From assembly GCA_044892525.1 (NCBI GenBank), contig CM097885.1:32056001-32116000 (forward strand): DNA of 60,000 nt. The letters run 5' to 3'. The notes under the pieces were generated by a model. The model did no database searches and had not been told where the DNA came from. It was given only the letters and a program-made list of their open reading frames with translations. This DNA comes from Schmidtea polychroa. Lineage: Eukaryota. Below are positions 1,405-59,700 of this stretch, piece after piece; position 1 is the first letter of the stretch, and each line of letters starts with the position of its first letter. A program made the position numbers and the translations under genes.

Positions 1405-1842
1405 TTAGAAATCGACCAATGAAATTATCTCATTTCGAACATTGTCAACAAATTCTCTATACTCCAAATTTCTCAACCCCAACATGACAACCTTTCCACT
1501 AGCAAACACGTTGACACATATAGGGTTATATTTTAATAGTCTTAGTGCCGGAAACAATTCCGGTTCAAACATACAATCACATTTTTTCGACATGTTATAT
1601 AGATTGATACTATGTCCCATATCCATAGTAACGGTAATTGATTGGATTTTAATATTATTTATTCGATATTGTAATTTATTAATATCCAAAGGTTTCTTAC
1701 ATCCCATGATTCTGCATTTACCAGTCTTGAAAAATATTATCGGATATTTCCCACTTCTATCGATAATTTGCTGGGGTTTCCCTGGTGGGAACCTCATATT
1801 CGATACATCAAAATTTCCTCGATAATTTATATTTGCTAACAT
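1405..1842 (-). CDS. TATA-box-binding protein (TBP)-like protein, 145 aa
   Basis: Second repeat IKIQSI...FEPELFPAL...VNVFASGKVVMLG matches TBP FKIQNM...YEPELFPGL...LIFVSGKVVLTG; first repeat keeps IIFFKTGKCRIMG. Confidence 0.85.
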   Translation of the reverse strand: MLANINYRGNFDVSNMRFPPGKPQQIIDRSGKYPIIFFKTGKCRIMGCKKPLDINKLQYRINNIKIQSITVTMDMGHSINLYNMSKKCDCMFEPELFPALRLLKYNPICVNVFASGKVVMLGLRNLEYREFVDNVRNEIISLVDF

Positions 1843-1941
1843 TATTAAATCATTTATGAAAATTAGTCTTTATATACAAATTGAGCACGAGTTCATTAAA
1901 TCATCGAATATAAACAAATACACATTTATAAAATATTTGAA

Positions 1942-2568
1942 ATGGAATTAAGAAATGATGCTGTATACCAAATCGTTGGTCCGAGTGGTAGTGGAAAAAC
2001 ATTATTTGTTTGTAAATTACTAAAATCCAATTTATTCAAATCAAAATTCAACAGGATTTATTGGCATAGGGGTGCTGATGAAGAACATGGATTAACTCAA
2101 TCAAGTTTCTGTAAATTAAAAAACATGAAAATAGTAAAGGGATTCGATAAAAACTGGTCCAGCCGATTAAAGAAAGGCGATGTCATTATTATCGATGATT
2201 TGTATCAAGAAGCTAATAAAGAAAAAGATTTTAATAATTTATTTACAAAGATTAGCAGACATGTCGGTGTAACAGTTATTTTCATAACTCAAAATCTATT
2301 TCATCAAGGTGGGGCACATCGAACACGTAATTTAAATGTACAATATTTAGTCATTTTCAAGAATCCTAGAGATGCAACAGTGATTGATTTTCTTGCACGT
2401 CAAGCATACCCTAACAATCGTAATTTTCTTATCAGTGCATTTCAAGATGCTACAAAAATACCTCATGGATATATATTTCTTGATTTCACACAACAATGTC
2501 CCGATGATTTACGTGTAAAAACAGATATTTTCAACCCAAAAGGTGCCATGGTTTATAAACAAAGTTGA
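1942..2568 (+). CDS. DNA packaging ATPase (A32/FtsK-HerA type)
   Basis: Walker A GPSGSGKT, Walker B IIIDD, SRH...FITQNLF, FKNPRD motifs. Confidence 0.93.
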   Translation: MELRNDAVYQIVGPSGSGKTLFVCKLLKSNLFKSKFNRIYWHRGADEEHGLTQSSFCKLKNMKIVKGFDKNWSSRLKKGDVIIIDDLYQEANKEKDFNNLFTKISRHVGVTVIFITQNLFHQGGAHRTRNLNVQYLVIFKNPRDATVIDFLARQAYPNNRNFLISAFQDATKIPHGYIFLDFTQQCPDDLRVKTDIFNPKGAMVYKQS

Positions 2569-3123: not shown

Positions 3124-3351
3124 ATGGGTGCTAATCCTTCATTGCCCGACATTAAATTTAATTTTAAATCTTCTTGTTGTAATGGAGAAGATTTGGACGA
3201 ACCCAGAAGACGAAGCCGGTTTCGGTGGAGTGGCAAAATTAAACAAAAGAGTTCCGAATTCGAAAAAAGAAACCCAGAAGTGGTTATCAGATCAGCTTGC
3301 GTACAGTTTGAACAAACCAATGCGGAAAAGATTTCCAACAAGAGCGTATAA
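3124..3351 (+). CDS. Small putative N-myristoylated protein overlapping the integrase start in another frame
   Basis: ATG 3 nt after upstream stop, good context (ACAATGG), MGANPS motif, SSCC pair. Confidence 0.5.
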   Translation: MGANPSLPDIKFNFKSSCCNGEDLDEPRRRSRFRWSGKIKQKSSEFEKRNPEVVIRSACVQFEQTNAEKISNKSV

Positions 3352-3569
3352 AACATTTGGTATTGACGATTTATGGCAAATGGATTTGATGGAGATGATA
3401 CCATATTCGAAAATTAACAATGGGAATAAATATATTTTAACATGTATTAATGTATACAGCAGGTTTGCACGAGCAATACCAGTCAAGGCAAAATCTGCAG
3501 AAGAAATGTCCAAGGCAATTAATATTTTATTTAAAGATGGACATCCTAATAATTTGCAAACAGATTTAG

Positions 3570-3646
<77 letters not shown>

Positions 3647-4276
3647 TTAGGTAAAGAATTCTACAATAGCAAAGTTAAGCAAATCCTCGATAAACTGAAA
3701 ATAAATCACTACTCGGTACATTCTCAATACAAAGCTGCCCATGTTGAAAGATTTAATCGAACATTGAGAGATAGATTAAAGAAATTGTTCGTGCATCAAG
3801 GTAATAAAAAATGGGTAAATGCTTTACCGAAAATAATAACAAGTTATAATCATTCATCACATCGAGGACTGAATGGATTGAGACCGGTTGATATTACATC
3901 AAAAACACCATTATCTAAAAAATCTGTAAAAATTGCAAAACCTAAATATAAAGTCGGTGACCATGTTAGAATTAGTAAAATTAGTGCATCACCATTTATT
4001 AAAAATTTTGATACAAATTGGAGTGATGAAGTCTTTGTAATTTCAAAAATAAATACTAAACAGAATCCTGTAATGTATGTCATCAAAGACAATGATAATA
4101 ATATTGTACAGGGGAAATTTTATGAGCAGGAATTACAAGTCATTCCTCCCCCAAAAGTATTTAGAATTCAAAAAATATTGAAAACTAAAAAGGTCGGTAA
4201 GGATAAACAATACTATATCAAATGGCACGGTTATCAAAACCCGTCATGGATATCGTCAAAAGACCTAGTAAAATGA
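3182..4276 (+). CDS. Retroviral-type DDE integrase with C-terminal chromodomain; intron 3570-3650
   Basis: WQMDL, QTDLGKEF (restored on splicing), VERFNRTL, YYIKWHGY...SWI; ATG at 3182. Confidence 0.93.
3570..3650 (+). other. 81-nt GT-AG intron made of (ATT)n microsatellite
   Basis: TTAG|GTATT(ATT)n TTAG|GTAAA; removal deletes the poly-Ile tract and restores DLGKEF. Confidence 0.85.
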
Positions 4277-5277
4277 ATTTTTATATTATTTTACCTAGCA
4301 ATAGCTGTCCACTTATTCATCCAGATAATAAAGCCAGCAAATTCAGGGTCAATCTTCAAAATCCGATATATTTGGATAATAGCTGGGAAGTTGCTCTGTT
4401 GGATTTTACATTTGTATACCAAGCCTTTCCATTTTATAGTAAGGCTAAAATTGGATACAAAAAGAATGAGTGGCAGGATAGATTATTGTCTATGATCATT
4501 GATAATGCAGATGATGAAGTTCGGTTGTCTAACTCAACTGATCCAGCTGTGAAAATGTATATTAACCATTCATATATAGTAGTTGAATGTAAACATTATC
4601 CTTTTACTGTAAAATTTGATAGTTTGGAAATGGCAAAACGATTGGAATTAAAAACCCAAAGTCATAAAGTTCTTTCCGATAAATTCACTATGCTACGACC
4701 GGGATATTCCAAAACTGTACAGCGATTTGAACCAATTTTATTTACAGTTTCATATCCGGGTATAACGTCTGGTACATTTGAGTTCAAAGATAATTTATAC
4801 ATTTCGAAATTGGATGAATTACAGACATATTTAAAACAAAGTGGTTTATTTAAATCATTGGAAATATCAGACAGATTCAAATTCAGTTTGAATCCCGAAT
4901 TTACTGAAATTACTTTTGATGCAAATCTAATAAAAACATTAGGATTATCAAAAGCAACATATGCTCAAGATGATCAAGGTACCCTAGCTCCGAAAATAAT
5001 TAAACTTCACCAACAAATGTTCATCTATAGTAATATTGTTGATCCTGTAATTGTTGGCGATTCTTTGGTCCCACTCCTGAAATCTGTTTGGATTGAAAAA
5101 TATGAACATGATGAAGTAGTCAATATAAATATCGATAATCCCATGTATTTACCTGTGTCAACCTCATGTATAAACAATATAGAAATAAATATACGTGATG
5201 ATTCTGGTAAATTAATCGCATTTCCAAAAGATTCAAAAACTCATTTAACATTACATTTTCGTAAAGTAGATGGCTAA
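4273..5277 (+). CDS. Minor capsid protein (penton-like)
   Basis: MNFYIILPSNS...DNKASKFRVNL...WEVAL start and MFIYSNIV...VGDSLVPLL...IRDDSG...LTLHFRK end; ATGA overlap with integrase stop. Confidence 0.85.
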   Translation: MNFYIILPSNSCPLIHPDNKASKFRVNLQNPIYLDNSWEVALLDFTFVYQAFPFYSKAKIGYKKNEWQDRLLSMIIDNADDEVRLSNSTDPAVKMYINHSYIVVECKHYPFTVKFDSLEMAKRLELKTQSHKVLSDKFTMLRPGYSKTVQRFEPILFTVSYPGITSGTFEFKDNLYISKLDELQTYLKQSGLFKSLEISDRFKFSLNPEFTEITFDANLIKTLGLSKATYAQDDQGTLAPKIIKLHQQMFIYSNIVDPVIVGDSLVPLLKSVWIEKYEHDEVVNINIDNPMYLPVSTSCINNIEINIRDDSGKLIAFPKDSKTHLTLHFRKVDG

Positions 5278-5635
5278 TTCGGATATTATAAGTATGTATA
5301 GTGGTAGCCAATCTGGCGGTGAATTACCATATTTTATTGGTAAACAGTACGGATCAGGATGGTTGAGAACAATTGGTAGATTTGCACTTCCTATTCTTAA
5401 ACGTATTGGTAGTTTTGGTATGAAAACTGCTAAAGATGTTATTATGAATGAACAGAAAATATTACCATCTCTAAAATCAAATGCTTTAGCAGAATTAGGG
5501 AAAGTTTTACCCGGGGTTGCAGGTATGTTTCAAAAACCAGCTCCAGCTCCAGCTCATGCTCCAAAACGTAAAAGACATGGAATATCACGTATAAACAAAC
5601 GAATGAAAGGCCATGGAACTATATTTGCAAAATGA
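5270..5635 (+). CDS. Small structural protein, pVI-like (cleavage motif plus amphipathic helix)
   Basis: QYGSG followed by WLRTIGRFALPILKRIG; basic C-terminus; lies between the capsid genes. Confidence 0.7.
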   Translation: MANSDIISMYSGSQSGGELPYFIGKQYGSGWLRTIGRFALPILKRIGSFGMKTAKDVIMNEQKILPSLKSNALAELGKVLPGVAGMFQKPAPAPAHAPKRKRHGISRINKRMKGHGTIFAK

Positions 5636-6854
5636 TTTGTGGTAAATCTGAATTATGTATATTTGATAGACCGTCGCCCCAGGCTGTAATAGAATTTGGG
5701 GCGTTTGAGGAAGTTTTTCCAATGAATTCAATTACTGATAGTAGAAATGATATAGAGTTTTATATTAATGGTTCGCAAACTGAATATTTAGATTTGAACG
5801 ATACTTTATTGACTGTTCAGATCAAGGTTATAGATAAAGATAAAAAAGCTTTGGGTGATGCTGCTGATGCAATACCGAACAATTTCATGTTTCATACTCT
5901 TTTTAAAGATGCTGTGTTGGGATTTAATAATATCAAGATTGAAGGTGGTAATAATACATTCATTCACAAGGCTTTGATAGAAACTATTTTAAATTACAAT
6001 TCCGATACTAAAAATACATGTCTTACTCCAATGGGATATGCTGCAACCGACGATGAAAGAAAAAAGTGGATTAAAGGCTCAAAAACATTCACCATGTGTT
6101 CATCGTTACAACTCGATTTTATGGATCAACCGAAATATTTGCTTCCAGGAGTTAATGTCCACATTCGATTGAAAAGATCCGATTCTGCACTAACTCTTAC
6201 TAGTGCTACAGGTGCACCAATATGTCAATTAGTTGATGCAAAATTATTGGTGAGAAGAGTTCGAGTAGACCCCTCAGTATTAGCTGGTCATCAATTGGGT
6301 CTTAATTCAAAACATGCAATTTATCCATTAAAACAAAGGAAATTGTACAATTTGCTATTGCTAAAGGTGCTTCATCATTCTATAAAGAACAAATATTTGG
6401 TGACAGAAGAATGCCTAATTTTATTCTGATAACATTTCAAAGTGAAGCACAATATAATGGATCATATACTGCGTCCAGCTCAATTTTCAAAAACTTTGGT
6501 GTTACATCATTGACTTTGTCGAAAAATACTGATTATAGAGAAACATATATTCAAGATTTCGAGAATGACAATTACTGCGCGACATATATGCAGAGTATTG
6601 TTAGAAATCTCGGTTATTTAGATAAAAATTTGAATTGCGGAATAACACTAGAAGAATTTAAAAGCAAATACCCATTTTTTACATTTGTTTTAGCCCCTGA
6701 TTTTGATTTAAATCAAAGTCAATTACCTCAAAATGGAAATTTACGACTGGATATAAAGTTTGCAAAAGCTATTACTGAACCAGTACATGTTATAATATAT
6801 GGAGTATTTGAAAATGAAGTTCAAATTACTGCAAATAGAACAGTGTTGGTATAA
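5632..6854 (+). CDS. Major capsid protein (double jelly-roll) split by one frameshift at A-run 6330-6333
   Basis: KSELCIF, IEFYI...YLDLNDT, QPKYLLPGV, GNLRLDIKF...VIIYG motifs; adding one A joins the two ORFs (YPLKTKEIVQFAI...RRMPNF). Confidence 0.88.
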
Positions 6855-7266
6855 ATGTATACAGAAACACAAAAAGTTATCATGGAGTAAGTTGTTTTTT
6901 ATACTCTGGATTTATTTAAATAGTTCTGTTCAGGTCAATAAAATCGGAAAACAGATATTGGGAAATGAATTTGTTGGAGTTTTTCCTCTTGATAAAATTC
7001 CATATTTGAGCAATAATCAAGCAATAATCGTCAATACTCAATCGTCTCATCTTGGTGGAGAACATTGGATAGCTATATATGTGAAACCTGGTAATATATT
7101 CGTGTTCGATCCTATGGGTTTCTATTACCCAGCTTTGTTGATATCAAAACTACAAACAATGGGAAAACCTATTGTGTATAATAAAACTATGTTTCAAAAT
7201 CCTTTGACCCAAACATGCGGTCAACATTGTTTAGCTTGGTTATTGTACAAAAAATTTGATGTTTAA
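6855..7266 (+). CDS. Adenain-like cysteine protease; predicted 37-nt intron 6887-6923
   Basis: Catalytic GEHW, FDPMG, Q...CGQHC; ATGGA|GTAAGT...AAATAG|T gives MDSVQVNKI in frame. Confidence 0.88.
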
Positions 7267-7358: not shown

Positions 7359-7407
<49 letters not shown>

Positions 7408-7485
7408 ATTATTAATATTATTATTATTGTGAAAAATATTATTATTTTTAATTAATTTTATTATTATTCTAATAAATATTATTAT
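7325..7485. repeat. (ATT)n-rich low-complexity tract
   Basis: Direct reading. Confidence 0.9.
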
Positions 7486-7769
7486 TTGTAACATAAAGAC
7501 TGCCTTTGCATGAGGCATGCACAGTGCAAGTTAACAAAGGCATGACTAACAAAGGCAGTCACATGTAATTCTGACTGATTTACATTACATACATGCATGC
7601 GTGTGATTGGTTGAGAGAGTAAAATATTCAATGTATATGTGTGTGTGTCTATATTCTCATTGGCTGGGACAGGAAAATATTCATTCTCTTTATAAACATT
7701 GACAAATCTAAAATTTGTCACAATTATTTCAAAATTTTTCAAATTTCAATTTCAATTTTAAAAATCTAA

Positions 7770-8441
7770 ATGGCTAACAATAATAAAAATGGAATTCTAA
7801 GAAATCTTTTGACGACAATGGGTAATTTATTTTATTTTATTTTATTATATTTTATTTTATTATTTTAGAACCATTCGATTGGTACGATGTAACGGAAGAT
7901 GACTCGATATTAACAGTGGATAAGATCTTCGGTAAATTTATTATTATAATTTTTAATAAATTAATTTTTTTTCAATTCAGAAAATGCTTCAAATAGCGAC
8001 GATGATGTCGTCTTTATCGGGGAAAGTAATGCTCCTAATAAGATCTTTGGTAAATTTATTATTATTTTTTTATTAAATTATTTTTTTTTTCAATTCAGAA
8101 AATGTTTACAATAGCGACGATGATGTCGTCTTTATTGGGCAAACTGATGCCCCTAATTATGCCCCTAATTATGCCCCAGTTCTCAAAGAAAAAAGTAAAT
8201 TTTATTATTATTTCTATTAAATTAATTTTCATTTCAGAAAATGTTTTAAATGTTGATATTGACGAAGAAGAAATTAATGTCCTCGCATCGGATGATGGTG
8301 AAATCTGTGAGAATGATGGGCAAATCTCATCGGATGATGATCAAATCTCAGAGAATGATGGGCAAATCTCATCGGATGATGATCAAATCTCAGAGAATGA
8401 TGGGCAAATCTCTGAGAATGATTCCGACATGGAATCAAAAT
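7770..8441 (+). CDS. Multi-exon acidic protein with repeated SIM-like motifs (exons ~7770-7821, 7869-7931, 7981-8048, 8099-8194, 8238-8441; 3' end unresolved)
   Basis: Four phase-1 GT-AG introns give a continuous MANNNKNG...EPFDWYD...SDDDVVFIGE...SDDDVVFIGQ...EEEINVLASDD...; further donor GTAAG at 8442. Confidence 0.7.
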
Positions 8442-8549
8442 GTAAGAAATATTTATTTTTATATATATATTTTGTTTTTTATTTATATGTTAAATTTGTA
8501 ATAACTTATTTAAATATTTTGATAAAAAACTTTTTTAAATATTTTAATA

Positions 8550-8870: not shown

Positions 8871-9044
8871 TTATACTAAGTTTCTGAAAGTTATTATTAT
8901 CAAAATATTTAAAAAGTGATTACAAATTATGGTTATAAATCCTTGTAGTTTGCAATGTGCATCTACAATAGTTAAAATAATAATAATAATAATATTAATA
9001 ATAATAATAATAATAATATTAATAATAATAATAATAATAATAAT

Positions 9045-9594
9045 GTAGTCTACAGTGAGCATGTAGCTACATAGTAGTCTGCAGTGAGCATGCAGCTACT
9101 TTTCTTTTATATAATAATAATAATATATAAATAATAATTAGACCCCGTCTACAGTAGTTTGCAGTAAGCATGCAGCTACATAGTAGTCTGCAGTGAGCAT
9201 GCAGCTACTTTTCTTTTATATAATAATAATAATATAAATAATAATAATAATAATATAAATAATAATAATAATAATATATAAATAATAATATAAATAATAA
9301 TAATAATATATAAATAATAATCAGACCCTGTCTACAGTAGTTTGCAGTAAGCATGCAGCTACATAGTAGTCTGCAGTGAGCATGCAGCTACTTTTCTTTT
9401 ATATAATAATAATAATAATAATAATATAAATAATAATAATAATAATAATATAAATAATAATAATAATAATATATAAATAATAATATAAATAATAATAATA
9501 ATATATAAATAATAATCAGACCCTGTCTACAGTAGTTTGCAGTAAGCATGCAGCTACATAGTAGTCTGCAGTGAGCATGCAGCTACTTTTCTTT

Positions 9595-9636
<42 letters not shown>

Positions 9637-9662
9637 TATAAATAATAATCAGACCCCGTCTA
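9045..9662. repeat. Array of paired palindromic TAGTCTGCAGTGAGCATGCAGCTA-type units separated by (AAT)n
   Basis: Four higher-order repeats, eight palindrome units including variants. Confidence 0.9.
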
Positions 9663-9903
9663 CTAAAATCTCTCTAATATTCTATCGAATATATTAACCT
9701 ATTTTCTATAATGATTTATCATCATTTGTTATTTAATTCAAATGAACTATATAACAAATGATGATAAATCCTTGTAGAAGTAACAATTAGTTTTCTATAT
9801 AGAAAAAAAAACAATAAAATTTTAATTTTATTATTTAACAGGTATACTATACCCGAACTATTGTCAAACATCAATTGGACATAGTGATAAATGTCATAGA
9901 ACA

Positions 9904-12900
9904 ATGACAAAATATTACCGAAAAAAGTTTAATTCGGTCAACTTTTTTATATGCCCCAAATGTGTAACGAGCGAAAAAATAAAATATAGGGAATTTTTTA
10001 ATAAACATCATAATCACTTAGGGCAATTTTCGATATCAAAAAATGTTTTATTTAAAAAAATAAATAAAAAATTAAATAAAAAAAAAAATTAGAAAATAAT
10101 TTACAAAAAAACTTACAAAAAAATTTAGAAAATAATTTACAAAAAAATTTGCAAAAAAATATTAAAAAAAATAAAAAAAATATTATTAAAGATTCAAATA
10201 TTAAAAAAGATGCTATTAAAAAAGATACTATAAATATTATTAAAAAAGATATTATAAATATTAAAAAAGATTCTATTAAAAGACCTGCTGGTTTAATTAA
10301 AAATTGCATTCCTAATAAATTATCGCGACCTGAAGTGATAGTCATCAGCAAAGATGAATGTGTAGCTTCAACATCGTTTACACACCAAGCACCCATTACA
10401 CAACACGCACCCATTACACAACAAGAAGTGATAGTCATCAATGATGAATGTGTAGCTTCAACGTCTTTGAACATATGCCAAATAGGCGGCTCTTTGTTTG
10501 AACCTATGGTAGAATCCGATTTGAACGGATCGCGTAAAACTTTAAGATTTGATATTAGAAATCAAAACTTAGTAAAAATAGCCCTAACATCAAAAATTGA
10601 AGATAGATTAATACAGGAAATAGAAAAGATGGGCAATGTAAAAATTCAATTCACAATTTTAATTAAATTTGAAAAAGATGGGGAGATCCGGGATAATTAT
10701 TTTTCGAACAATGCTCAAGTTTTTACATCAAACTTTATAAACGAGGGGGTGAGCAAATTAAATGAAAAGATTGAGCAATTCACCTATTTAGGAAGCGGGT
10801 GGCGAGTAATGAATATTTTAGAAATAGATTTTATTTTAACGAAATACGCACCCGTCAGTAGATTATCCGGACATAGCTATATAAAAACCCCATCAGCATT
10901 AAAATTAAAACATGCAATAATTAATGTAAAAAACAACGACCATAAGTGCTTCTTGTATAGCATTCTTGCACTTTTAAAAAGAGAAGAAATAGGTCGTAAT
11001 CACCAAAGAGCCGCCAAATATATAGAATTTTTACCTCTATTAAATTATGACGAAGACACTGATTGCCCGATGAGGCTATGCAACATTCCCAAATTTGAAA
11101 GAAAAAATAGAGATTTAAACTTGAGCATAAACGTTCTGTCTTATAATCCAGCCAGTTCTGATTTAGATATTTCTGAGGATTATGTAGCTCACCACCCTCA
11201 TCTTAATATAGTACATCGCTCCAAGGTTATAGACGGTATACCAATTTATTTATTACTTTTGAGTAATAAAGATAAATATCATTATACAGCCGTGACAGAC
11301 TTGGACAAATTAATGAATTGTCATGAAAATGAAAATGTAAATGTTCAAATAAGGTGTAACTGGTGCCCACATTGTTTAAATGGCTTTAGATATAAGAATG
11401 CTTTCGATCAGCATGTTGCTCTATGCTGTAAAAATCAGACTGGCACAACTTTGTATACACTTCCTAAAAATAAAGATTTATTATTCACAGATTACGCAAA
11501 AACAGTTACACCTCCCTTCGTAATTTATGCCGATTTTGAATCGGTTTTACCAGAACATGAAACATATCATCAAATACATTTACCCATATCAGCAGGTCTT
11601 TTATTAATTAATAATTATACACACACTAAATTTTATTATTATTTTTTTGGACCTAATTGTATTTTGGATTTTTTGAGGAAAGTGGAGGAAATTGCTGTCA
11701 CAATTGTCCTGCCATATTATGATCTTGAAGGTCGTAAAGGTATGTCTACTTTGTCATTTGCTCAGGAGCGTGCCTTTCGATCTTCCACTATTTGTTATTT
11801 GTGTAAAAAATCTATTATTAATCCTGTGAGAGATCATTGCCATTTTACAGGTAGATATGTCGGAGCGGCATGTAGGAAATGCAATGTCTCTCGCAGGATT
11901 AATAAATTGTTACCTGTTGTCTTTCATAATTTACGAGGCTATGACCTCCACCATATTTTAAAACATGGTCTCAGTGATTTTCCCCTTTGGGAACTTAATA
12001 TTATACCTACCTCTACAGAAAAATTTATATCTTTAATTGCATATATTAACAAATTGCCTGTTCGTTTTATTGACAGCATGCAATTTGTTAATTGTTCTTT
12101 AGCAAAAGCTGTGAAAACCTTAACTACTTTTCCTTTGACTTCGTCTGTCTTTCAAGGGTCGATGATTCACTCTAAAGGTATCTTTCCATATAATTTCGCC
12201 ACTTCTTTAGATGTTCTTGAATCGACTTTAGAATTACCTCCTATTTGGTCTGATGTTACGGAAGATCAGTACGCTGAGGCTCAACTAATTTGGAATCAGC
12301 ATAACTGTAATAATTTGTTAGATTATATGTTAATCTACCTAAAATTGGACGTATACCTCCTCGCAGATTATTTTCAGCAATTCCGCGGTAAGGCAATTGC
12401 TTACAATGGTCTGGATCCTCTTAATTTCTACGGGATTCCCGGTATGTCATGGGCCTCAGCGCTTATGACATTAACGGAACCCATAGAACTTCTGCAGGAC
12501 ATGGAAATGTATAATTTCTATGAGGGAGGTATCCGGGGTGGGTTAACATTTGTTAACAAACATTACACGGCTACTTCAGATGATACAGAATTATTGTACA
12601 TTGATATAAATAATCTGTATGGTTGGGCTCTTAGCCAAAATCTTCCGTATGGTGATTTTTCTTGGGTGAATAATAACTTGAATGATGTTTTACTTGAATG
12701 TATGAACACGGATATTGATAACCTTCCATATGGGTATACTATGGAGGTCGATATCGATATTCCGGAATGTGTGCATGACTTTTTGAATGATTTTCCGCTT
12801 GCGCCGGAAAAGTTGTGCCCGCCTAATTCAAAAGTTGAGAAGCTTATGCTTACGCATTGGCCAAAGAGGAACTATGTTCTTCATTGGAGGCTTCTCAAAT

Positions 12901-13898
12901 TGTATATAGAATTAGGTGCGGTTGTTGTAAATATTCATAGGTGTATAAAGTTTAAACAAGGACCTATCTTTAAATCCTACATAGACACCAACACCACTTT
13001 ACGATCTCAGTCTACTAGTGAGATATATAGGGACTTGTTTAAATTGTATAATAACTCTCTTTACGGTAAATCGGTTGAAAATTTGAAAAAAAGAATGAAT
13101 TTGAGGTTGTGTAATTCATCCGAAAAGATGATAGTATACTCCTCAAAGCCGACTTTCAGAAAGTCCATAAGAATCGATAACGATCTGATTGCGGCACATT
13201 TGGAAAAAGATGTGATTTGTTTAGACAGACCTAGCTACATTGGTCAAACAGTACTAGATCTATCTAAACTGCGGATGTACCAGCTCCAATATATTGATTT
13301 GGAGAAGTACAGACGCCAATATAAATGTATCATAAATATTATTGCCGGTGATACCGACAGTTTCTTTTTGGAAATAAAAAATTTAAAATTAACAACTTTA
13401 TTACCTCAGATGATCTCTGATAATTTATTGGATACGTCAAATTACGATCCAACCCACCCCTTGTATAGTAGGAACCTTGACTCGGTCATCGGGAAGTTTA
13501 AAGATGAGAGCAAGGGATTAGGGTATTCTGAATGGGTTTTCTTACGCCCTAAATGTTATAGTCTTTTAGGTAGTAAGGAAACGGTAAAAGCGAAAGGGGT
13601 TAAATTACCAGGGACATCAATAAATCACGAATCATATCTAAATTGCTTTCATTCAAATCAGGTGATTTCTGTACCGCAGACTAGAATAGGTACTAGAAAT
13701 CACCAACTTTTTACTTTTAAAAATTCGAAAATTGCCCTAAGTAATAATGATGATAAGCGCGCGTGGCTAGGAAAAAACTTAAGTTACGCATTTGGGCACT
13801 ATTTAGGAGTTGACGAATTAAGCGAATATGATGAGGAATTCGGTCCAGCTCCAAGTCCCAGTTTTGACGACAGCGAATGGGACGAAGATCAAATTTAA
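9904..13898 (+). CDS. Protein-primed family B DNA polymerase with endonuclease VII-like insert; frameshift in A11 run 10078-10088
   Basis: YADFES, DHCHFTGRYVGAACRKCN, FHNLRGYD, YIDINNLYG, KLYNNSLYGK, GDTDS, LRPKCY. The PolB frame has no early ATG and joins the 9904 ORF (CPKC...HHNH) if the A-run gains one A. Confidence 0.93.
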
Positions 13899-14118
13899 AT
13901 AGAAAAAACTTTATATTTTTGATTTATAAAAACTTGTATAGTGATTTCATGATTTATAAAAAATTGTATAGAAACTTTTATTTAAAAACTTGTACAAAAA
14001 CCTGTATATTGTATAAAACTTGTATTTATATATACATATTCAATAAAATTTTTAATCAGATTTTTTAAGTATTTGGTGTTTTATTATAATTTTTTTATAT
14101 TTAATGGTGATTTTTATA

Positions 14119-14255
14119 TAGTCTGCAGTGAGCATGCAGCTATATGTTTTTTTATATAGTCTGCAGTGAGCATGCAGCTATATGTTTTTTTTATATAGTC
14201 TGCAGTGAGCATGCAGCTATATGTTTTATATAGTCTGCAGTGGGCATGCAGCTAT
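14119..14255. repeat. Four tandem copies of TATAGTCTGCAGTGAGCATGCAGCTATA palindrome
   Basis: Same unit as 9045-9662; fourth copy has GTGGGCA loop. Confidence 0.9.
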
Positions 14256-14296
14256 ATCAATGAAATAATAATAATAATAATATTAATAATATTAAT

Positions 14297-14333
<37 letters not shown>

Positions 14334-14341
14334 TTAATAAT

Positions 14342-14387
<46 letters not shown>

Positions 14388-14465: not shown

Positions 14466-14897
14466 TTGATTTTTAATAAATCAATATGTGTTTGTCCGAA
14501 TACAGCCAAGTTGATGGATATTTTATATATTCTCGATAAACCAAAATGGTCAAAGCATCCAGGAAAAAGAATATCTCAAAGATTGGAGAATTTAGAAAAC
14601 AGTTATGAACTAACATTTGAATATATACAAAATATAAAAATTAAATTGATTGATCATATTGAGGTTTTCAATAACTCTATTACTGAAAATAAAAAGAATA
14701 TGAAGATTATTGATAAGAAGCATGATTATTTGTTAAAAAAGATTGAATTATTATTAAGAGAAATTCAAACAATCAAAGGATCAATAGAATATCTGAAAAT
14801 CAATTCAACGTTACCAATTTCTAACAATAATGCTGCGAATAGAAGTGCATCAATATTTAGTTTACCTTTGTTAATTTTACATTATTTTATTGTTTAA
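14466..14897 (+). CDS. Hypothetical coiled-coil protein with hydrophobic C-terminus; start uncertain
   Basis: 143-codon ORF with heptad pattern, followed by AATAAA. Confidence 0.45.
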   Translation: MIFNKSICVCPNTAKLMDILYILDKPKWSKHPGKRISQRLENLENSYELTFEYIQNIKIKLIDHIEVFNNSITENKKNMKIIDKKHDYLLKKIELLLREIQTIKGSIEYLKINSTLPISNNNAANRSASIFSLPLLILHYFIV

Positions 14898-15022
14898 ATA
14901 AATGTATGTTTTGTTGATTTGTTGAGCGTGACCAGTACCCTTGTGAGCATTACCCATAGGGGGACAAAATATTTTGTCGGATAGACTCAGAGTATATAGA
15001 CTCGGTGTATATAGATTAATAC

Positions 15023-15112
<90 letters not shown>

Positions 15113-15236
15113 GATATATGGCTCATTCGAAAGGTCTTGGATTGAGCTTTAAAATGAGCTATCGATTATTAATTTTCGTTGGCGGGAACTTTGAAAAAAT
15201 TAAAAATAAAATAATAATATTTTTAAAAATAATAAT

Positions 15237-15900
15237 ATGACCTTGATGAGTCATCGCGATGACTCATATGACCTTGGGAATGACCTTGGATGAGTCATGT
15301 GACCTTGAAAATGACCTTGAGTCATAGGATGACTCAGATGACCTTGAAAATGACCTTGAAAATTTTGATGAGTCATCGGATGAGTCATATGACCTTGAGA
15401 ATGACCTTGATGAGTCATAGGATGAGTCATATGACCTTGAGAATGACCTTGATGAGGCATAGGATGAGTCATATGACCTTGAAAAAAATTTTCAAGGTCA
15501 AATGAGTCATACTATGAGTCATATGACCTTGAAAATGGCCTTGATGAGTCATACTATGAGTCATGGTCTTTGTTTCAATGACCTTGATGAGTCATAGGAT
15601 GAGTCATATGACCTTGAAAATTTTTTTTCAAGGTCAAATGAGTCATACTATGAGTCATACGACCTTGAAAATGACCTTGATGAGTCATGGTCTTTGTTTA
15701 AATGACCTTGCGAAATTTTTTTGACCTTGATGAGTCATATTATGAGTCATATGACCTTGAAAATGACCTTGGTGAGTCATCGGATGAGTCATGGTCTTTG
15801 TTTAAATGACCTTGAAAAATTTTATGAGTCATAGGATGACTCATGTTCTTTGTTTCAATGACCTTGATGAGTCATATGTCTTTGTTTAAATTTGACCTTG
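15237..15900. repeat. Subterminal array of TGACCTTG and TGA(G/C)TCA motifs, likely within the Polinton TIR
   Basis: About 25 copies of each motif by manual count. Confidence 0.9.
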
Positions 15901-15995
15901 AAAAAAAAATGTACTTTTAGACTTAGAATATTTTTGAAAATCTTACCGACGGGGGGGGGGGGGGTACTGTGCCAGCGGTGCCCAATCCATCTACT

Positions 15996-19800: not shown

Positions 19801-21679
19801 ATGGATAAATACGTAACTAGCTTTAAAAGAAAATCAAATGAAGCTGAAGCTGAAGCAGAAGCAAAGAGCGAAAATAAAGAAGAAAATTTCATAAGCATAT
19901 CTTCACAAATTAGTAAACTTAAATATAGAAAATATGACCCAGTATACTTATCATTTGGATTTACATATAAGATTATTAATGGAAAAGAGCATCCATTGTG
20001 TTTATTGTGTATGAATACTTTGGCCTCAGACAGCATGAGGCCAAATAAGTTAAAACGACATCTGAAAAAGTACATGGTGATCACGTTGGTAAGACGAAAG
20101 AACTTTTCAAAAAAAGTTAGAAAGTTTAAGTAAACAACAAGAAATGTTTCTAAAGACCATGTCTATATCACAAAAAGCATTGCTTGCGTCATATAAAGTT
20201 TCTTATAGAATTGCCAAATGCAAAAAACCACATTCGATAGGTGAAACTCTTGTGTTACCTGCAGCCATTGATATGATAGAAACTATGCTTGGAGAATCAT
20301 ATGCTGACCAACTTAAAATAATCCCCCTTGCAGATAACACGGTTGGAAGACGAATATCAGATTTATCCGAAGATCTTTGCGACCAATTAATAGAAAAAGT
20401 AAAACTATCTTCTTTCGCATTGCAAGTAGATGAAGCTACTGATGTTATTAAGGATGCACACGTGATAATATATGTAAGATATGTTGTTGAAACCGATATT
20501 AAAGAAGACATGTTGTTCTGCAAACCTATTGAATTTAATACTACAGCAAAGGAAGTTTTTAAAATCATTGATATTTTTTTTAAAGAAAATGGCATTCTAT
20601 GGGAGAACTGTGTTGGGCTATGCACAGATGGAGCTCCATCCATGGCTGGAAAAAACGCTGGTCTACAGGCACTAGTTCGAAAGGTGGCTCCTCGTGCAGT
20701 TTGGACACATTGCATGATTCATAGACAATCACTTGTATCAAAAAATATGAATGAAGATCCCCTGGCAGTATTTGAAATTGTTACAAGAGTTGTAAATTTT
20801 ATTAAAAATAGCCCATTAAGAGCAAGGATTTTTGCAAAATTGTGTGATGACATGTGTTCAGAATATAGATCACTTCTATACTATTGTGAGGTACGATGGC
20901 TTTCACGTGCTAAAGTACTTTAAAGGGTGTTTGAGCTAAAAGATGAAATCGCTATATTTCTTAGTGATAATAATAGAGACGAAGCACATTTGTTTTTTGA
21001 TACGAAATTCCTTGTTAAACTTGCGTATTTAGTTGATATTTTTCAAAAACTTAGTATTTTAAATAAATCAATGCAAGGGGCTCAATTTCATACTTTTACG
21101 CAGAAAGACAAGATCACTGCATTTATCAAAAAAATAGAACCGTGGATAATATTTTTAAAAAATAATAACTTTGACATGTTTCCAACTTTTAAACTTACCT
21201 GTCTCGCTGAAGAAATAGAAGAAAGTAAAATTTTTATTAACAATCATTTGACAAGCCTACAGAAGCAATTTTCGTTGTACTTTAAGGATCTAGACATGTC
21301 CAAATATGAATGGATTAGAAATCCATTTATGATTGAGGAGTATAATGATTTTAACCTTACGACAGCAGAACAGGAAATGATTATTGATTTATCTAGTGAT
21401 AGCACATTAAAGCAGATGTTTTATGATGTAAATAATATTGTTACATTTTGGCTAAGAGTAAAGGACGATTTTCCCACTTTGGCAAATAAAGCTTTAGAAA
21501 TTTTATTGCCATTTGTAACATCTTATTTGTGTGAAACTGGCTTTTCTACAGTAGCTGTTCTTAAAACGAAGCATCGATCTCAATTAATGATAGAAAAGGA
21601 ATTGAGAACCGCGATTTCTTCAATGATACCACGATTTGAGAAGATTTGTGCAGGAAAACAAGCTCAAATATCGCATTAA
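19801..21679 (+). pseudogene. ZBED5/Buster-like transposase with frameshifts near 20070-20110 and stop at 20921-20923
   Basis: BED finger CLLC...LKRHL, FALQVDEATD, CTDGA, HCMIHR, VRWLS, YLCETGFS. Confidence 0.92.
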
Positions 21680-33521: not shown

Positions 33522-34741
33522 TGTTTAATTATAACTTCAAACCAACATTAATGTTTTACAAACAAAAGATATAATAAATTTAATTAAATAAATTAAATAA
33601 ATTGTTTGTTGGTATTTAAAAATATTTTAACATATTACTTAAAACAATCAGTAGACACTTGGTAACAAATATTTGTTAATTATCTTTTTAATTATAGCAA
33701 ATTGGAATTATTTCCTTATTAATATTTAGGAATACGTTAAGAAAGTAAATATTAAATATATAAGTAGTAAATAGTAAGGACTCCAGCGCACTTTCAAGGT
33801 CATGGAATATCAAGATCAAATATAGACCAATCGAATCATTTATTTTTTAAATTAATATTTTATTTAATTACTTCTTTTTAATTTTTTTTCTTTTTAATTT
33901 TATTAATTAATTATTTTATTATGTTTTATTTTAATTACTTACGCTATTTAATTATTATTATTATTTTTTTTAATTTTCTTAATTAATTATTTTATTATGT
34001 TTTTATTTTAGTATTATTTTATTTATTTATTATTATTATTATTATTTTTTTTTAATTTTACATTTACATTATATTCTAACAAGAGGTAAATTATAACAAT
34101 AATATTTCAATTTGAATAAAATTTTAATTAGTAATTATTTAATTTGAATAAAATTTAATCATATTAATCATATGGGCGAACTCGAGAACGGGTAAGAATT
34201 TTTTTATACAGTTTTTTTTAGAAAATAGAGCACTAGTTACTCTTTAGTTACTTTTAAAAAGTGAAATTTCACTGCTGATGTCTAGAAATCACTCTTTTAA
34301 TAGAGTGAAGCCTGGTCAGTCGAAAAATTTCACTTCTATATTGATATACAGTTGGAAACAATCTAAGATTATTGCAAGCACGGTTAGCGAGAAAAATTTA
34401 GTAATTTACTAAACACATTTCTCTACTATTTTATCTCGCATAGAAGCAGTATTTTCTCACTGCAAACAAATTTTGTACTTTTAATCTAATCAAAAGGTAA
34501 TTTTGCAGTATTATTATAGATACCCACATACATTTGTGCAGTGTCAATTCGATAGTAGCACTTACTTTATCGAAAATTCTAGTACTGCCTCACTCATAAG
34601 CTAAACATATGTTTGAACACTGCTGCTCTTCATATATTGAGACAGTTAACCACTTGATAGTATCTTTTTATATCAGAACATTATTACTTAAAGTAAATTA
34701 ATAATAAAATCAATTTATTTAAATTTCATCAAGTTGCCGTC

Positions 34742-36437
34742 ATGCTTAATTCACGTGTATGCCTTAATCGTTTTGTAATTCCAGAAACTAAATTAATATG
34801 CCAACTTTATTTTGGCATAGCACCTATAGATCCGGTAACCAATTCATGGAAATGTTCGTGTGGAAATGTTCGTAAGCAGAACATAAAACTTGGTTACTCT
34901 AACTTAATAAGCCATATCAAACAGAAACACAAAAATTATCTTGATATGTACCACCTAAGTAAAAGTGCTAGTGTCGAAGGTGACTCGCAAGATATTGAAA
35001 ATAGTAACGAATCTCGAGAAATTGTTCCTTCTCTTGCATCACGACAGATTACTCTAAAGTACATGCTTGATACTAGATCAAAAAACATTTACAAATGGAT
35101 GGAATGGATCATAATGGATGAACATGAACTCGTTTTTTGTGAAAAAGAGTTTACTCGTGCAAATACAAATCTTGAATCTATTTCCGTCAAAACAATAAAA
35201 AAGTATATGTTTAAGGTAGCAGACAAAGTAGAAAAAAAATATTTCTCTCCAAGCTAAAGAAGCACCTTGTTATGCACTAGTATTTGACGGATGGTCTGAA
35301 AATTCTACACACTTCATTGGTATTTTTATTGTCTTCTCAGGAAAAGAAAGAGAAGATGCTCCATTTATGCATCTTTTGGCCTTTGCACCGTTACTTGATG
35401 AGACAAGCTTTAATGCAGATAATCACGCTCAATTCATTCGTGCAACAACCAATAGCTACTCCCTTTCTTTGAGTAATTTATTTTGTTTAATTGGGGATAA
35501 TTGCTATACAAACAAGGCAACAGCTAATCTTCTTGGTGTACCCCTTTTAGGCTGTCGTAGTCATCGTTTTAATATAGCTGTTGAAGCCTATTTAAACAGA
35601 TTCCTTTCTACATAAACAGATGTAATAGGAATGTTGATGTCCAAATTATCAACACTCAAGCAATCAGGCAGAATGCGTCTCATGACAACACTTCGCCCAG
35701 TCAAACGAAACGTCACACGCTGGCCTGGAATTCCAGATATGTTGGAGCGTTTTAAAAGATTATTACCACGCCTAAATAACGAAGATGAAGAACTCTTAGA
35801 ATTTATTCCAACTGCAGCACAGAAAAAAAATGTTCGTGAACGTAAACAAGCATTAGTGGACTTCAAGTCGGTTACACTATCCATCCAACGAAACGACATG
35901 ACAATAAATGAATCAGAAGTTTTATTTCAATCAATAATAGATTCATATCCAGAAATGAATTTTGCATCCTATATTGGTGAAGATGCAAAAATTATTCATA
36001 ATAAGCAATTGGAATCCGCAATCATCAAAATTCAAGGAAAAAAGGAGATTTATCTGACAGTTGAAGAAAAAGAAGAAGTAAAAAAATTGTTATTAAAAGT
36101 CGATAATAATGAAGGTGATTCTCAAGAACATTTTGAAACTTTATCTTTTGCAGAGAGGGCCCTCAAGAGACAACGATTGCAAGAGAAGCAAATGTGCAGC
36201 AAGTACATCAATACTAACTTTTTAATTCCAACATCTTGTGAAGTGGAAAGACTTTTTTCTTTAGCTAAAAGAGTATTTAGTCCTTACAGAAGAAGCTTGC
36301 ACCCTCAAACTTTAGAGACATTACTTTTTCTAAATCGAAATAAGTCCCTTTGGAATTTGACTCTAGTAGCATTAGTGGTCAATGAAAAAGATAATGACAA
36401 GGATGAAGATGAATACGAATTTGAGGAAGAATGGTAA
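34742..36437 (+). pseudogene. hAT-like transposase with BED-like finger; one frameshift (~35235) and one stop (35613-35615)
   Basis: CSC...NLISHI..KH, FDGWS, IGDNC, GCRSHRFN, TRW, PTSCEVERLFS. Confidence 0.88.
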
Positions 36438-54764: not shown

Positions 54765-56153
54765 TTACTCCGTTCTACCCTTCTCCTCTTTCCTCACGGT
54801 CATCTTGATATACACCGTGTCATTTCTTGCCATATCTTCTACTTTTTGTTGTAGGATGAACGTAGGTGCTCCTGTTGCTGATCCTTCTTCTTCCGTAGGT
54901 CTCTGGTAACACATTTGGTTTCCAGTTGTCTTGAAGCTTTGTTCGTGGATGTTTCGGTCATTCATTAGTGCAATATCGATTTTTGCCTGGAACGGCCACT
55001 CTATTATTTCGTCGTATTCCCCTTTACATAGCAGAAAGAAAATCGAAAAGTGCGTATCTAATCCGGTTCCGTCCCCGTTGGGATATATCTTCATTTTCAT
55101 TTTGTACAAATTTTTCCCAGAATGGAATGCAGGACTTGTTATTCTTGTCTCTTCTCCGGTTTTTGCTTTTCGTATTCTTTCTTTTACTCCCGTTATTTTC
55201 CATATGTAGGGTGCTGTTGGTATTACTTCATTTAGATTTATTTCCCGTATTTTCTGATGTAGCTCCTTGGCCTGATTATTACTGATTTCTATTCGGTTTA
55301 TTTGCATCTTTATGTTTGCTCGGGCTTCTTCGAACGCTTCCCTTTCTTCTAGTAGTTCTTTGACTAACACTTTCAACGATGTTATCTCTATCTCCATTTG
55401 TTTTATTTTCTCTTCGCTTTCTTGTAACGCAGTCGACCACATTTCTGCGTGGGTTGAAGCATTTTCTACTAAATGATGTGGTAACTCCCCTCGGTGTAGT
55501 AGTTTCTGACAACCCCATTTACCTAGTACACATGTCATTCTTTTCCTTTCACATTCCCTTAGATGCTGTGCCACTTTCAATATTTCCCCTTGGTTACATC
55601 CGTTTGGGCATTCCCCACTGAATTCTGCACATACTTTCTCCTCTTGGACATTGTGATGTTTGAGGGTGAGATTTTTCCACGTGTCTATTTCTCCACAATG
55701 TTCACATCTTTCCAATCTCTCTTCACACTGCCTTTGATGCTCTTTTTCTTCGCTTGCTCGAATGGTTTTATGGCACCTTTCACACTGGCCAATTCTGTAC
55801 ATACATTCTCCCATATGTTGTACTACCTTCCAGATTACTCCTTTCCATTCGCATGGGGCATTTTTGCATCCCAGGTTGGTGTTTAACATATCTTTGACTG
55901 CGGCTTTATCCTCGTTAGTGTCTTCTAAACTCGATATTAGTGTCTCTTTACACACCGGGCACCGCTGTGGTCTATTCTTTATTGCTTCACTGATACATTC
56001 CTTACATACTCTGCATCCACATTGAGTTTGGTGAGGTTCCTTTAACAACTTTTCACATATTCCGCACATAACATGTTTGTGTATTCTGATCGTTGTAGAT
56101 TTTCGTATTTGCTCGACAATCTTTCTGAACTCCTCTCTTTGTCGTTTATCCAT
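54765..56153 (-). CDS. Intronless TRAF-family protein (RING, TRAF zinc fingers, coiled coil, MATH)
   Basis: CGIC...QTQCGCRVCKEC...CPVC; YIWKI...SPAFHSG...IYPNGDGTG..THFSIFF...GEYD..IEWPF. Confidence 0.93.
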   Translation of the reverse strand: MDKRQREEFRKIVEQIRKSTTIRIHKHVMCGICEKLLKEPHQTQCGCRVCKECISEAIKNRPQRCPVCKETLISSLEDTNEDKAAVKDMLNTNLGCKNAPCEWKGVIWKVVQHMGECMYRIGQCERCHKTIRASEEKEHQRQCEERLERCEHCGEIDTWKNLTLKHHNVQEEKVCAEFSGECPNGCNQGEILKVAQHLRECERKRMTCVLGKWGCQKLLHRGELPHHLVENASTHAEMWSTALQESEEKIKQMEIEITSLKVLVKELLEEREAFEEARANIKMQINRIEISNNQAKELHQKIREINLNEVIPTAPYIWKITGVKERIRKAKTGEETRITSPAFHSGKNLYKMKMKIYPNGDGTGLDTHFSIFFLLCKGEYDEIIEWPFQAKIDIALMNDRNIHEQSFKTTGNQMCYQRPTEEEGSATGAPTFILQQKVEDMARNDTVYIKMTVRKEEKGRTE

Positions 56154-56238
56154 TCTATAATTATATGTACATATAGTCCTTATCGATACAGGTTCGATAT
56201 TTTATTTACAATTATTTACATTTTAAGCTAGGTTTGGT

Positions 56239-56758: not shown

Positions 56759-59700
56759 CTATATACGTGAGTTTGGAGGGCGCTGAGCGTTCCAGGCCTC
56801 CACCCACTGTTCTTGTTTGATATCACTTGGTCGTTTCACTCGATGTTGGAAATTTCTGATTCGGGTCATCTCTAGTTCTCCGCGATGTCGTTTATCTTTA
56901 ATTATTTTTATTGTTCCCCCCGTTATGATTAGGAAGGCTCCTGTTATTATTATCCCACTAATCCACATCATCTGCCTCACGCTTATATTTTCTGGTTTCT
57001 CCTTGTTTGTTAATGTTACTATTGCTTCTGTACTTTTCTCGTTCCCTCTTTTGCCATTTCCTTTCATCATCTCTCGTATTCTTGCTATTTCCTCGTTCAT
57101 ACCCTCCTTTGCCATCTTTTGTATTTTTTCCATCTCTTCCTCCGAAACATAGTTGTCCTGAGCTTCCTCACCGGTTTTCTTGTGCTTTCCGCCTTCGTCC
57201 TTTTCGTCGTTGTTTTTTCTTTTCTTTCCTCTTTTCACCGGGTATCGTCGACATTCCCTTTTTGATTCGTTCCTCCAGATACAAACCGTGTATTCTTTCG
57301 GCGGCTGTTGCTGCGTCACGTATTGATGGCATTTCTCACCTGGTCCTAATCTTGAAATACAGACTTTGTGCTCTTTTCTAGGTTGGAGTTGCGTTATTAC
57401 TACTTCACCACCTTTTCCTAGGTGTACCTCTTTTCCTTTAACGTTCGTTATTCTCTTCCCGTCTCGATTTCGGTATGCTTCTTGTATTCTTACTTCTGTT
57501 ATTGGTTCTGTGTCCTCATTTATCAGTACTAGTTTCTGATACGCTCTAGACATGCATCTTCCTAGTATGCACCTTTCCTTTAAGTCCCATTCCTCCTTTA
57601 AATCCCACTGCTGCTCTTGTGCTTGCTTTTTCTTTTCTTGTTTTAGCTCATCCTCTTTGCTGTCTTGATTCTCCGCTTCTTTGGTTTCTTTTATCGTTCT
57701 CGTCCCTCCATGAGCTGTTACTAACTCTATCATGGTGAGCATGATTATCATTAATATCATATTTGTCTCTATTTCTTTGTTAGTGAAAGGTAGGCATACC
57801 CTCTGTTTTCCATTATTCGGTTTTTCCTCCTCTTTGGTCTTGGTTCCCGGGCTGTTTCCCTCTCTTTTCGTATCCAAATCCTTGTTTTCCGGTTTATCCT
57901 CTTCCGGTTCTCTTTTCCCTTTATCCTCTTTTCGGCCTTTTCCGTCATTGTCATCGTGTTTATCTCCCCCGCTGTCGTTTAAAATGTCGTCCTCGACATT
58001 TATATCGTTCAATAATCTGCGATATGCTGTTAGCACCCTGTTTCTTGCTAATTTTGCTTCGAATTCAAACTCTTTTCTACCCGTTGCAGCATGTCTCTTT
58101 CTATTCCATTCTTTGACTAACTCTCTCAATTGAATACGACGATGTTTTCCCACTCGTTGTAGCTCGTTCTGATTTTGCGTGAATTTGAGGTCTTCTCTGT
58201 TTAATACTATTAAAATAATTTTTGGTGTCCCCCTTTTAGTTAATGTATTCTTTACCATTGCGTTTTCTCCGTTTTCGTAGAATTCGTTTATGTTTATCGC
58301 ATATTTATTATTTTGTGGTACCCTCCATGTTAATAATAATTTCATTGCTTCTAGATTTTTCCGTACCGTATTCCATTGAAATTGAGATGTGTTTTTGCAC
58401 ATATTTTCAACTTCTTCTTTTGTCGCATTTTTGCAAATAAATCTGATCATTTCCAAGTTTGGCTGTATGGTTGCCCAGTCCAATGTGGAGTTCCCTTCGT
58501 TTGATTTTTCGTCTAGTCTCGATCCTGATTGATGTAGGATGTGGAGTGTTTTTGGGTGTATTTTTGTTATAGCTGCATACATCATGGCGGTTTCGCCTTG
58601 TTCATTTTTCGTGTTGGTTTCCTCGCCCATATCCCCAAGGATTCTTATGATCGTTATTGCTCTATTCTCTTTTGCAGCCAGTATTGCTTGTTGTAATGGT
58701 GTTCTTGAATCTTTCGTCACCATCGTAAATGCTCGAGGCAAGAAGGTTTTGATTTTCCCGATATCTAAACCCGTGGTTTGATCTCTTGCGTATGTGTGTA
58801 CGGCTTTTATTATTTTTGACAATATTATTTCGTCTGACAGCTCTAGCATTTCCTCGAAGAATACTTCTTTTGCTTTGCGTATTATTGTCTCTTGATCTAT
58901 ACTCATTGATTTGGTTTCGATGACGTTGTTTGTGACCGTTTGGTTCGTTGTCGACTTTGGTTCCCTTGATTTCCCATACATTATATTCGTTTTCTTTCCG
59001 TTTGGATTATTGATTCGTTCCTCTGCTGTAAGTATTTGGATAATATCCAGGTAATTTTCGCGGATGTTATTCATTGTGTCCATCATATATAACACACTTA
59101 CCGTTTCCCAATATTTATTTCGTACTTGGTTAATAAATTGGAATAGTGATTTTTCGAATGTGTCGATTCGCTTTTTTGCTAACTGTTCATCTTTATGATT
59201 TGTGAATTTTATCCCTCGTTCTAGTAATTGATTCGGGATTTCGAATAGATGATGTCCTTTCATAGCTTCTCTCATCAGCGTGTTCTCTCCTCTCGTGAAC
59301 GCTTCGTTTACGTTGATCATATAATCATTTTTAATTGGATTTCTCCATGTAATTAGTATTCCGGTAATTGTTGTCAGTTTTTCTTTGATCGCTGTTAACA
59401 ATCCATCATACATGTTTCCGACTTCTCGATTGTCCTCATATGATAGTAGTTCCATCAATGACGTGAACGCCTCGGTACTTTTCCCTTCGATAGCATGATG
59501 TAGTGCATTTTTCCGCTCGTGGTCTTGTGTAGTTATTTTTGATCCAGTATCAAGTAATGCGGTTATAATGTCTTTGGTTTTGCCTCTGTTTGCTGCTATC
59601 ATTAATGGTGTGTAACCTTGGTTGTTTTCTTGTTCTGTTGATCGCTTGCAGTCGTGAAATGCTTCTATTGTTTCCAGTATTTGCTCGTTGTTACCTACTT

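What the first reader, a model, noticed from the sequence alone, without database searches (positions are those of the whole stretch)
3566..3653. Microsatellite intron inside the integrase catalytic motif, with duplicated TTAG|GTA junctions
Seen: an 81-nt GT-AG segment of almost pure (ATT)n splits QTDLG/KEF, and both junctions read TTAGGTA. Inference: intron gain by proto-splice-site duplication plus repeat expansion. Retention stays in frame and would insert a poly-Ile tract next to the catalytic Asp, so splicing could switch integration on or off.
Basis: partly seen in the sequence, partly recalled or inferred. Interest (0 to 1): 0.8.

Follow-up and report, generated by a model that had tools for sequence, protein, structure and literature searches.

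The report
Repeat-filled intron in Polinton integrase
A virus-like jumping element, present in about a thousand copies in this animal genome, carries a short insert beside an active-site residue of its integrase; it is very likely an ordinary host-type intron whose body likely turned into an ATT repeat later, which is unusual because such genes were reported intron-free in vertebrates, but nothing shows that it works as an on/off switch.

Summary
Observation confirmed: an 81-nt GT..AG segment (3570-3650, 24 TTA units) with an 8-bp repeat at both ends splits the integrase of an 18.7-kb Polinton/Maverick (6-bp target duplication). It is not a one-off: 961 copies start the same segment; it is 45-177 nt in 75 measured copies. 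Sister families carry a non-repeat GT..AG segment at the same nucleotide that cannot be read through: 42 nt with an in-frame stop (248 copies), 43 nt (92 copies), 40 nt. Integrase exons stay under purifying selection (dN/dS 0.10-0.23) between subfamilies that all carry the repeat. So it is very likely a spliced intron, and the microsatellite is likely a later change of its body. The junction duplication is missing in the closest sister family and follows from two common codons plus splice consensus. Lengths in threes follow from repeat slippage; no evidence for a retention switch. Splicing itself was not seen: the read tool hides repeats, and one run of unsure type looks unspliced. One gain with losses, or two gains at one site, remains open. 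The scan noted this intron before on another copy in the same genome (e1-9281158).

The parts
3182..3569 (+). Integrase exon 1 (ATG to first base of the Gly codon); holds catalytic Asp 1 and Asp 2 (Asp 2 codon 3563-3565)
3570..3650 (+). 81-nt GT..AG phase-1 segment, likely intron; (TTA)24 at 3573-3644, T-rich acceptor TTTTAG
   Evidence: family-wide
3565..3572 (+). 8-bp direct repeat, left copy (donor junction)
3646..3653 (+). 8-bp direct repeat, right copy (acceptor junction)
3651..4276 (+). Integrase exon 2: catalytic Glu and C-terminal chromodomain-like part
1900..2568 (+). A32-like packaging ATPase of the element (stop-to-stop frame)
6796..7266 (+). Adenovirus-type C5 protease of the element (stop-to-stop frame)
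7770..8443 (+). Five small exons separated by four GT..AG segments of 47, 49, 49 and 43 nt, all phase 1; the frame carries over without stops
10080..13898 (+). 1272-aa open frame, taken as the protein-primed DNA polymerase from size and place (Pfam gave only an Endonuclease_7 hit)
   Evidence: name inferred
14471..15995 (.). Right terminal inverted repeat, ending CTACT and followed by the 6-bp target duplication AAGGAT; the left end lies 2,743 bases before the window (L236:7258); element 18,738 bp

Best explanation
The 81-nt segment is inherited by all measured copies of this Polinton family and is very likely a short host-type (U2, GT-AG) intron that the host spliceosome would remove to make working integrase, its ATT repeat being a likely later expansion inside an older AT-rich intron. 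Shown: position, family-wide presence, same-site segments in sister families, purifying selection on both exons. Inferred: splicing; the order intron first, repeat second; that unspliced transcripts give a dead protein with 15-59 extra residues beside Asp 2. Because the intron body is free, slippage changes its length by threes, which keeps the frame open as a by-product.
For: (a) 961 copies start the segment, 3 differ at the next base and none of the 3 is a clean insert-free copy of this family. (b) Of 80 copies taken in genome order, 75 could be measured: 45-177 nt, 73 of 75 end AG, 5 of 75 are not multiples of three; the 4 of length 3n+1 have both exons open (two of them look like one segmental duplicate). 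(c) Family B (about 75% identical, 248 pattern matches): 30 of 30 copies hold a 42-nt non-repeat segment with an in-frame stop, exons open in 27 of 30. Family D (92 matches): 16 of 17 measurable copies 43 nt, both exons open in 8 of 17. Family C, the closest sister (100/98): 40 nt. Single copies with 38, 41, 45 nt. (d) dN/dS 0.10-0.23 in 6 of 6 pairs of repeat-bearing subfamilies at dS 0.08-0.37; A-C 0.15; B-D 0.10. (e) The same element has four more short GT..AG segments that carry a frame over. (f) Two database proteins stop right after QTDLG, with C-terminal partners on contigs of equal length.
Against: No spliced read or contig was seen. In run X2 (RNA only by guess) the contig from exon 1 runs 39 letters past the unmasked part, which fits entry into the repeat (39-40) and not a spliced path to the next fork (25), so that run looks unspliced (indirect; its even cover also fits DNA). 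The donor GTATTA is far from GTAAGT and there is no classic branch sequence (recalled consensus). Some copies are only 21-33 nt, below the 45-85 nt peak reported for planarian introns (PMC13594981, passages); these may be dead copies. Intron bodies of different families are no more alike than shuffles (best 13 of 300), so common descent of the bodies is not shown. Family C is mostly decayed (both exons open in 0 of 12, 1 of 6).
Confidence: 0.85

Rival explanations
1. A regulated switch: retention of the in-frame repeat makes an inactive or interfering poly-Ile integrase in some cells, splicing makes the active one in others, and repeat length tunes the ratio.
For: 70 of 75 copies are in frame and 0 of 75 hold a stop when retained, so retained transcripts would escape nonsense-mediated decay; weak donor; one run looks unspliced. 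Polintons are de-silenced on differentiation in S. mediterranea (PMC8532177, passages).
Against: Trinucleotide slippage gives 3n lengths, and an ATT frame needs several changes to reach a stop, so neither needs selection. Families B, C and D amplified with segments that cannot be read through. Length drifts freely from 21 to 177 nt. No tissue data.
Confidence: 0.06
2. The segment is never spliced; it is an inactivating insertion (for example a retroposon TAA tail with an 8-bp target duplication), and the family spreads with integrase borrowed from intron-free families.
For: 8-bp direct repeat around a TAA run on the other strand; 117 uninterrupted integrase motifs exist in the genome; no spliced evidence.
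Against: A dead gene would drift to dN/dS near 1, observed 0.10-0.23; unrelated GT..AG segments sit at the same base in at least three other amplified families; family C has no direct repeat.
Confidence: 0.07
3. The insert is translated and tolerated as a loop.
For: The frame is open in 27 of the 30 closest copies.
Against: 15-59 mostly Ile residues two places after the catalytic Asp; no outside homologue has any insert there (17 of 17); sister families have stops or frameshifts at the same place.
Confidence: 0.02

Closest known systems
Vertebrate Mavericks/Polintons (Barreat and Katzourakis 2021, PMC8097293; passages read)
   Same: Terminal inverted repeats, AG..CT ends, 6-bp target duplication, integrase, ATPase, protease, large polymerase-size frame.
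   Different: That paper saw no introns in genes of intact elements; here the integrase and a further gene hold short GT..AG segments, family-wide.
Ginger1 transposons (Bao et al. 2010, PMC2836005; passages read)
   Same: Gypsy-like DDE integrase genes of DNA elements interrupted by 1-4 mostly GT-AG introns.
   Different: Cut-and-paste elements without polymerase or capsid genes; no repeat-filled intron in the passages seen.
Introners in maverick-polinton-like proviruses of dinoflagellates (PMC11957031; passages read)
   Same: Introns inside integrated Polinton-like elements.
   Different: Those are mobile intron-making transposons; here the bodies differ between families and sit at one site, with no sign of a mobile unit (not searched genome-wide).
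New introns of Daphnia pulex (PMC4202315; passages read)
   Same: Short AT-rich introns, 4-12 bp direct repeats at the ends of some, frequent parallel gain at one site (43 of 90).
   Different: Host genes and alleles, not a mobile element; not pure microsatellites in the passages seen.

Membership tests
Polinton/Maverick | Terminal inverted repeats with AG..CT ends and a 6-bp target duplication | tested here: met
   Ends AGTAG..CTACT, AAGGAT on both sides, 18,738 bp
Polinton/Maverick | rve integrase, packaging ATPase, C5 protease | tested here: met
   PF00665, PF04665, PF00770
Polinton/Maverick | Protein-primed family B DNA polymerase | tested here: inconclusive
   1272-aa frame 10080-13898; Pfam did not return the polymerase model at E 0.01; named from size and place
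Polinton/Maverick | Capsid proteins | not tested
   Frames 4207-5277 and 5572-6854 had no Pfam hit; not folded
U2 spliceosomal intron | GT..AG ends and T-rich acceptor | tested here: met
   (73 of 75 end AG; GT was fixed by the search pattern)
U2 spliceosomal intron | Position kept while length, frame and body vary; flanking exons under purifying selection | tested here: met
U2 spliceosomal intron | Removal from RNA | tested here: inconclusive
   Read tool masks the repeat; no run is on record as RNA; X2 geometry looks unspliced
Intron gained by proto-splice-site duplication / staggered break repair | Direct repeat at both ends and an empty AG|GT site in relatives | tested here: inconclusive
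   Repeat present in A and B, absent in C and shortened in D; empty TTAGGTA site in family L163 and in loci L259, L260; also expected from codons plus consensus
Regulated intron-retention switch | Cell- or condition-dependent retention with a functional outcome | not testable with these tools
   No raw stranded RNA reads were offered
Introner | Same intron body at many unrelated sites | not tested
   Simple-repeat body cannot be searched meaningfully; bodies differ between families

The most novel reading that the evidence does not exclude
The AG|GT site beside catalytic Asp 2 is a hotspot at which Polinton integrases of this host gained an intron at least twice in parallel (lineage A+C and lineage B+D, with intron-free families between them), making the elements dependent on host splicing; in family A the body then became a microsatellite whose length, different in each of about a thousand near-identical copies, sets how much active integrase each copy makes.
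Probability: 0.2. Interest if true: 0.7.

Novelty: new variant of a known kind. Interest (0 to 1): 0.4.

Why it matters
Core genes of animal Polintons have been described as intron-free. A family-wide intron in the integrase active-site region means these elements rely on the host spliceosome and that homology-based annotation will call intact copies broken. About a thousand near-identical copies with intron lengths from 21 to 177 nt, plus sister families with and without the intron, are a ready natural series for testing minimal intron length, splicing of a pure repeat, and gain against loss at one site. The on/off switch that gave the first score has no support.

Tried and rejected
RNA: no RNA holder listed on record. 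Laying four runs on the window and on a natural copy with a 24-nt segment: the junction was masked both times; 0 joints were dropped at the mask and 1 of unknown kind; no verdict. Looking for clean insert-free copies of family A (which could mark reverse-transcribed spliced RNA): none among 3 of 3 hits; 44 of 117 uninterrupted motifs were compared and all are 71-83% identical to A, so other families. Viral contigs: 38 pattern hits, none confirmed. Metagenome loci: 33 of 80 matched the uninterrupted motif, 0 of 80 the interrupted pattern, 47 of 80 neither. No near-identical full-length protein in the protein database; the 99% hit P0122 jumps from QTDLG to the last residues and looks like a deletion or misassembly. 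First DNA tree had long branches from truncated copies and an unsettled bootstrap; replaced by the protein tree. Test of one clade for intron-bearing rows: p-AU 0.153, so a single gain is not rejected. The 2006 founding paper on Polintons was not held; Repbase entries could not be seen and may already annotate these introns. Host species: the TRAF-like gene gave no taxon; 'planarian' is an untested inference.

Full report
The observation. The segment is as described: 3570-3650, 81 nt, GT to AG, 24 pure TTA units, with an 8-bp direct repeat over both junctions. It falls after the first base of the Gly codon two residues past the second catalytic Asp of an rve integrase with a chromodomain-like end; the motif aligns weakly to foamy virus integrase HSDQGA. 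Read through, the frame is open and gains 27 residues; 17 of 17 aligned outside homologues have nothing there.

The element. The gene lies in a Polinton/Maverick of 18,738 bp with AGTAG..CTACT ends and a perfect 6-bp target duplication, with inverted repeats 99.8% alike over one 642-bp stretch; it has an A32-like ATPase, a C5 protease and a 1272-aa frame taken as the polymerase. The host is an AT-rich animal genome of 781 Mb with four large contigs; a planarian is likely but I did not test it.

Other copies. The 30 best-scoring copies all carry the segment (66-114 nt; 29 of 30 multiples of three). A pattern for the donor flank plus the start of the repeat has 961 matches, control 0; only 3 matches go on with another base, and they are an inversion, a repeat with a substitution and a member of another family. 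I fetched 80 of the first 100 listed places (leaving out those already held and the last rows): 75 could be measured, 45-177 nt, 70 multiples of three, 5 not, 73 ending AG, none with a stop when retained; of the other 5, four break off at the repeat and one has a deletion in exon 2. So this is inherited, not a one-off hit, and its length drifts by slippage.

Sister families settle the reading. At the same base, family B (about 75% identical) has a 42-nt non-repeat GT..AG segment with an in-frame stop in 30 of 30 copies, with both exons open in 27 of 30 (248 matches). Family D has 43 nt in 16 of 17 measurable copies, both exons open in 8 of 17 (92 matches). Family C has 40 nt and is mostly decayed; single copies have 38, 41 and 45 nt. 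None of these can be read through. Between subfamilies of A that all carry the repeat, dN/dS is 0.10-0.23 (6 of 6 pairs), and 0.06-0.15 between families, so integrase was made and selected while the segment was there. The same element has four more GT..AG segments of 43-49 nt that carry a frame over five exons, all phase 1 like this one. Two database proteins stop right after QTDLG with partner halves on contigs of equal length, a hint that the split form occurs in other samples.

Origin. In the protein tree A is sister to C (100/98); B and D are sisters (99/94) and group with two intron-free families (95/95); outside homologues are uninterrupted. The fewest changes are two gains, but one clade of intron-bearing rows is not rejected (p-AU 0.153; 18 copies picked by me for long open pieces, 23 database proteins). 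Intron bodies of different families are no more alike than shuffles. Since A's sister has an ordinary AT-rich body, the microsatellite is likely secondary. The junction repeat is absent in C and shortened in D; it needs only the codons TTA and GGT plus the usual GTA donor and TTTAG acceptor, and the empty site exists in an intron-free family and in two metagenome loci. It is compatible with gain by staggered break repair as described for Daphnia (PMC4202315, passages) but does not show it.

RNA. No listed run is on record as RNA. The read tool masked the junction on the window and on a short-repeat copy. Against my reading: in X2 the contig from exon 1 runs 39 letters past the unmasked part, which fits entry into the repeat and not a spliced path to the fork at window 3667; X2 may be DNA or unprocessed RNA, and contigs drop rare forms. 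Splicing is therefore inferred, not seen.

The switch idea. In-frame retention is possible in family A and would escape decay, but slippage explains the lengths, the ATT frame hardly yields stops, and families B, C and D amplified without any read-through option. I give it 0.06.

What is known. Intact vertebrate Mavericks were reported without introns (PMC8097293, passages). Nematode Polinton (10.1101/2023.08.22.554363), adintovirus (PMC8502044) and cryptophyte PLV (PMC12220804) papers mention no spliceosomal intron in integrase in the passages returned for 'intron' and 'splic'. Introns are known in Ginger1 integrase-like genes (PMC2836005, passages) and introners in dinoflagellate Polinton-like proviruses (PMC11957031, passages). 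Planarian introns peak at 45-85 nt (PMC13594981, passages); Mavericks are expanded in Dugesia (10.64898/2025.12.11.693146, passages) and PIWI-silenced in Schmidtea (PMC8532177, passages). My searches returned no paper on an intron in an animal Polinton integrase; subscription papers, Repbase and supplements were not seen. Earlier notes of this scan report the same intron on another copy and a related one in another family; I had reached my reading before opening them.

Verdict. A real, family-wide, very likely spliced intron in a Polinton integrase, with a likely secondary microsatellite body: a new variant of a known kind, interest 0.4.

Noticed in passing
window 7770-8443: Five small exons with four phase-1 GT..AG segments; two lie in a 118-bp tandem duplication. 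Earlier scan notes read such exons as a spliced leader of the polymerase; the link to 10080 was not tested here. All five introns seen in this element are phase 1.
   Followed up: partly
window 1405-1869, minus strand: Small gene with a TATA-binding protein domain (PF00352, E 1.5e-15) inside the element.
   Followed up: no
window 5572-6854: The likely major capsid gene is broken by a frameshift near 6330 in this copy.
   Followed up: no
L037, L047, L051, L060: 4 of 80 copies break off at the repeat and go on in other sequence (L037 into the repeat-rich stretch like window 7400-7560), so the microsatellite seems to act as a deletion or recombination point.
   Followed up: no
window 8960-9670 and 14111-14385: Arrays of a 29-39-bp GC-richer unit between AAT runs, on both sides of the polymerase-size frame.
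   Followed up: no
window 15234-15906: Long degenerate tandem array inside the terminal inverted repeat with many TGAGTCA/TGACTCA words, which match the AP-1 site (recalled).
   Followed up: no
window 54768-56201 and 56762-59875, minus strand: Single-frame TRAF-like gene (RING + MATH) next to a 1038-aa ankyrin-repeat frame.
   Followed up: partly
window 20093-21679 and 34697-36437: Two broken hAT transposase remnants.
   Followed up: no
protein P0122: 99% identical to exon 1, then jumps to the last 14 residues of the integrase; likely a deletion or misassembly.
   Followed up: no
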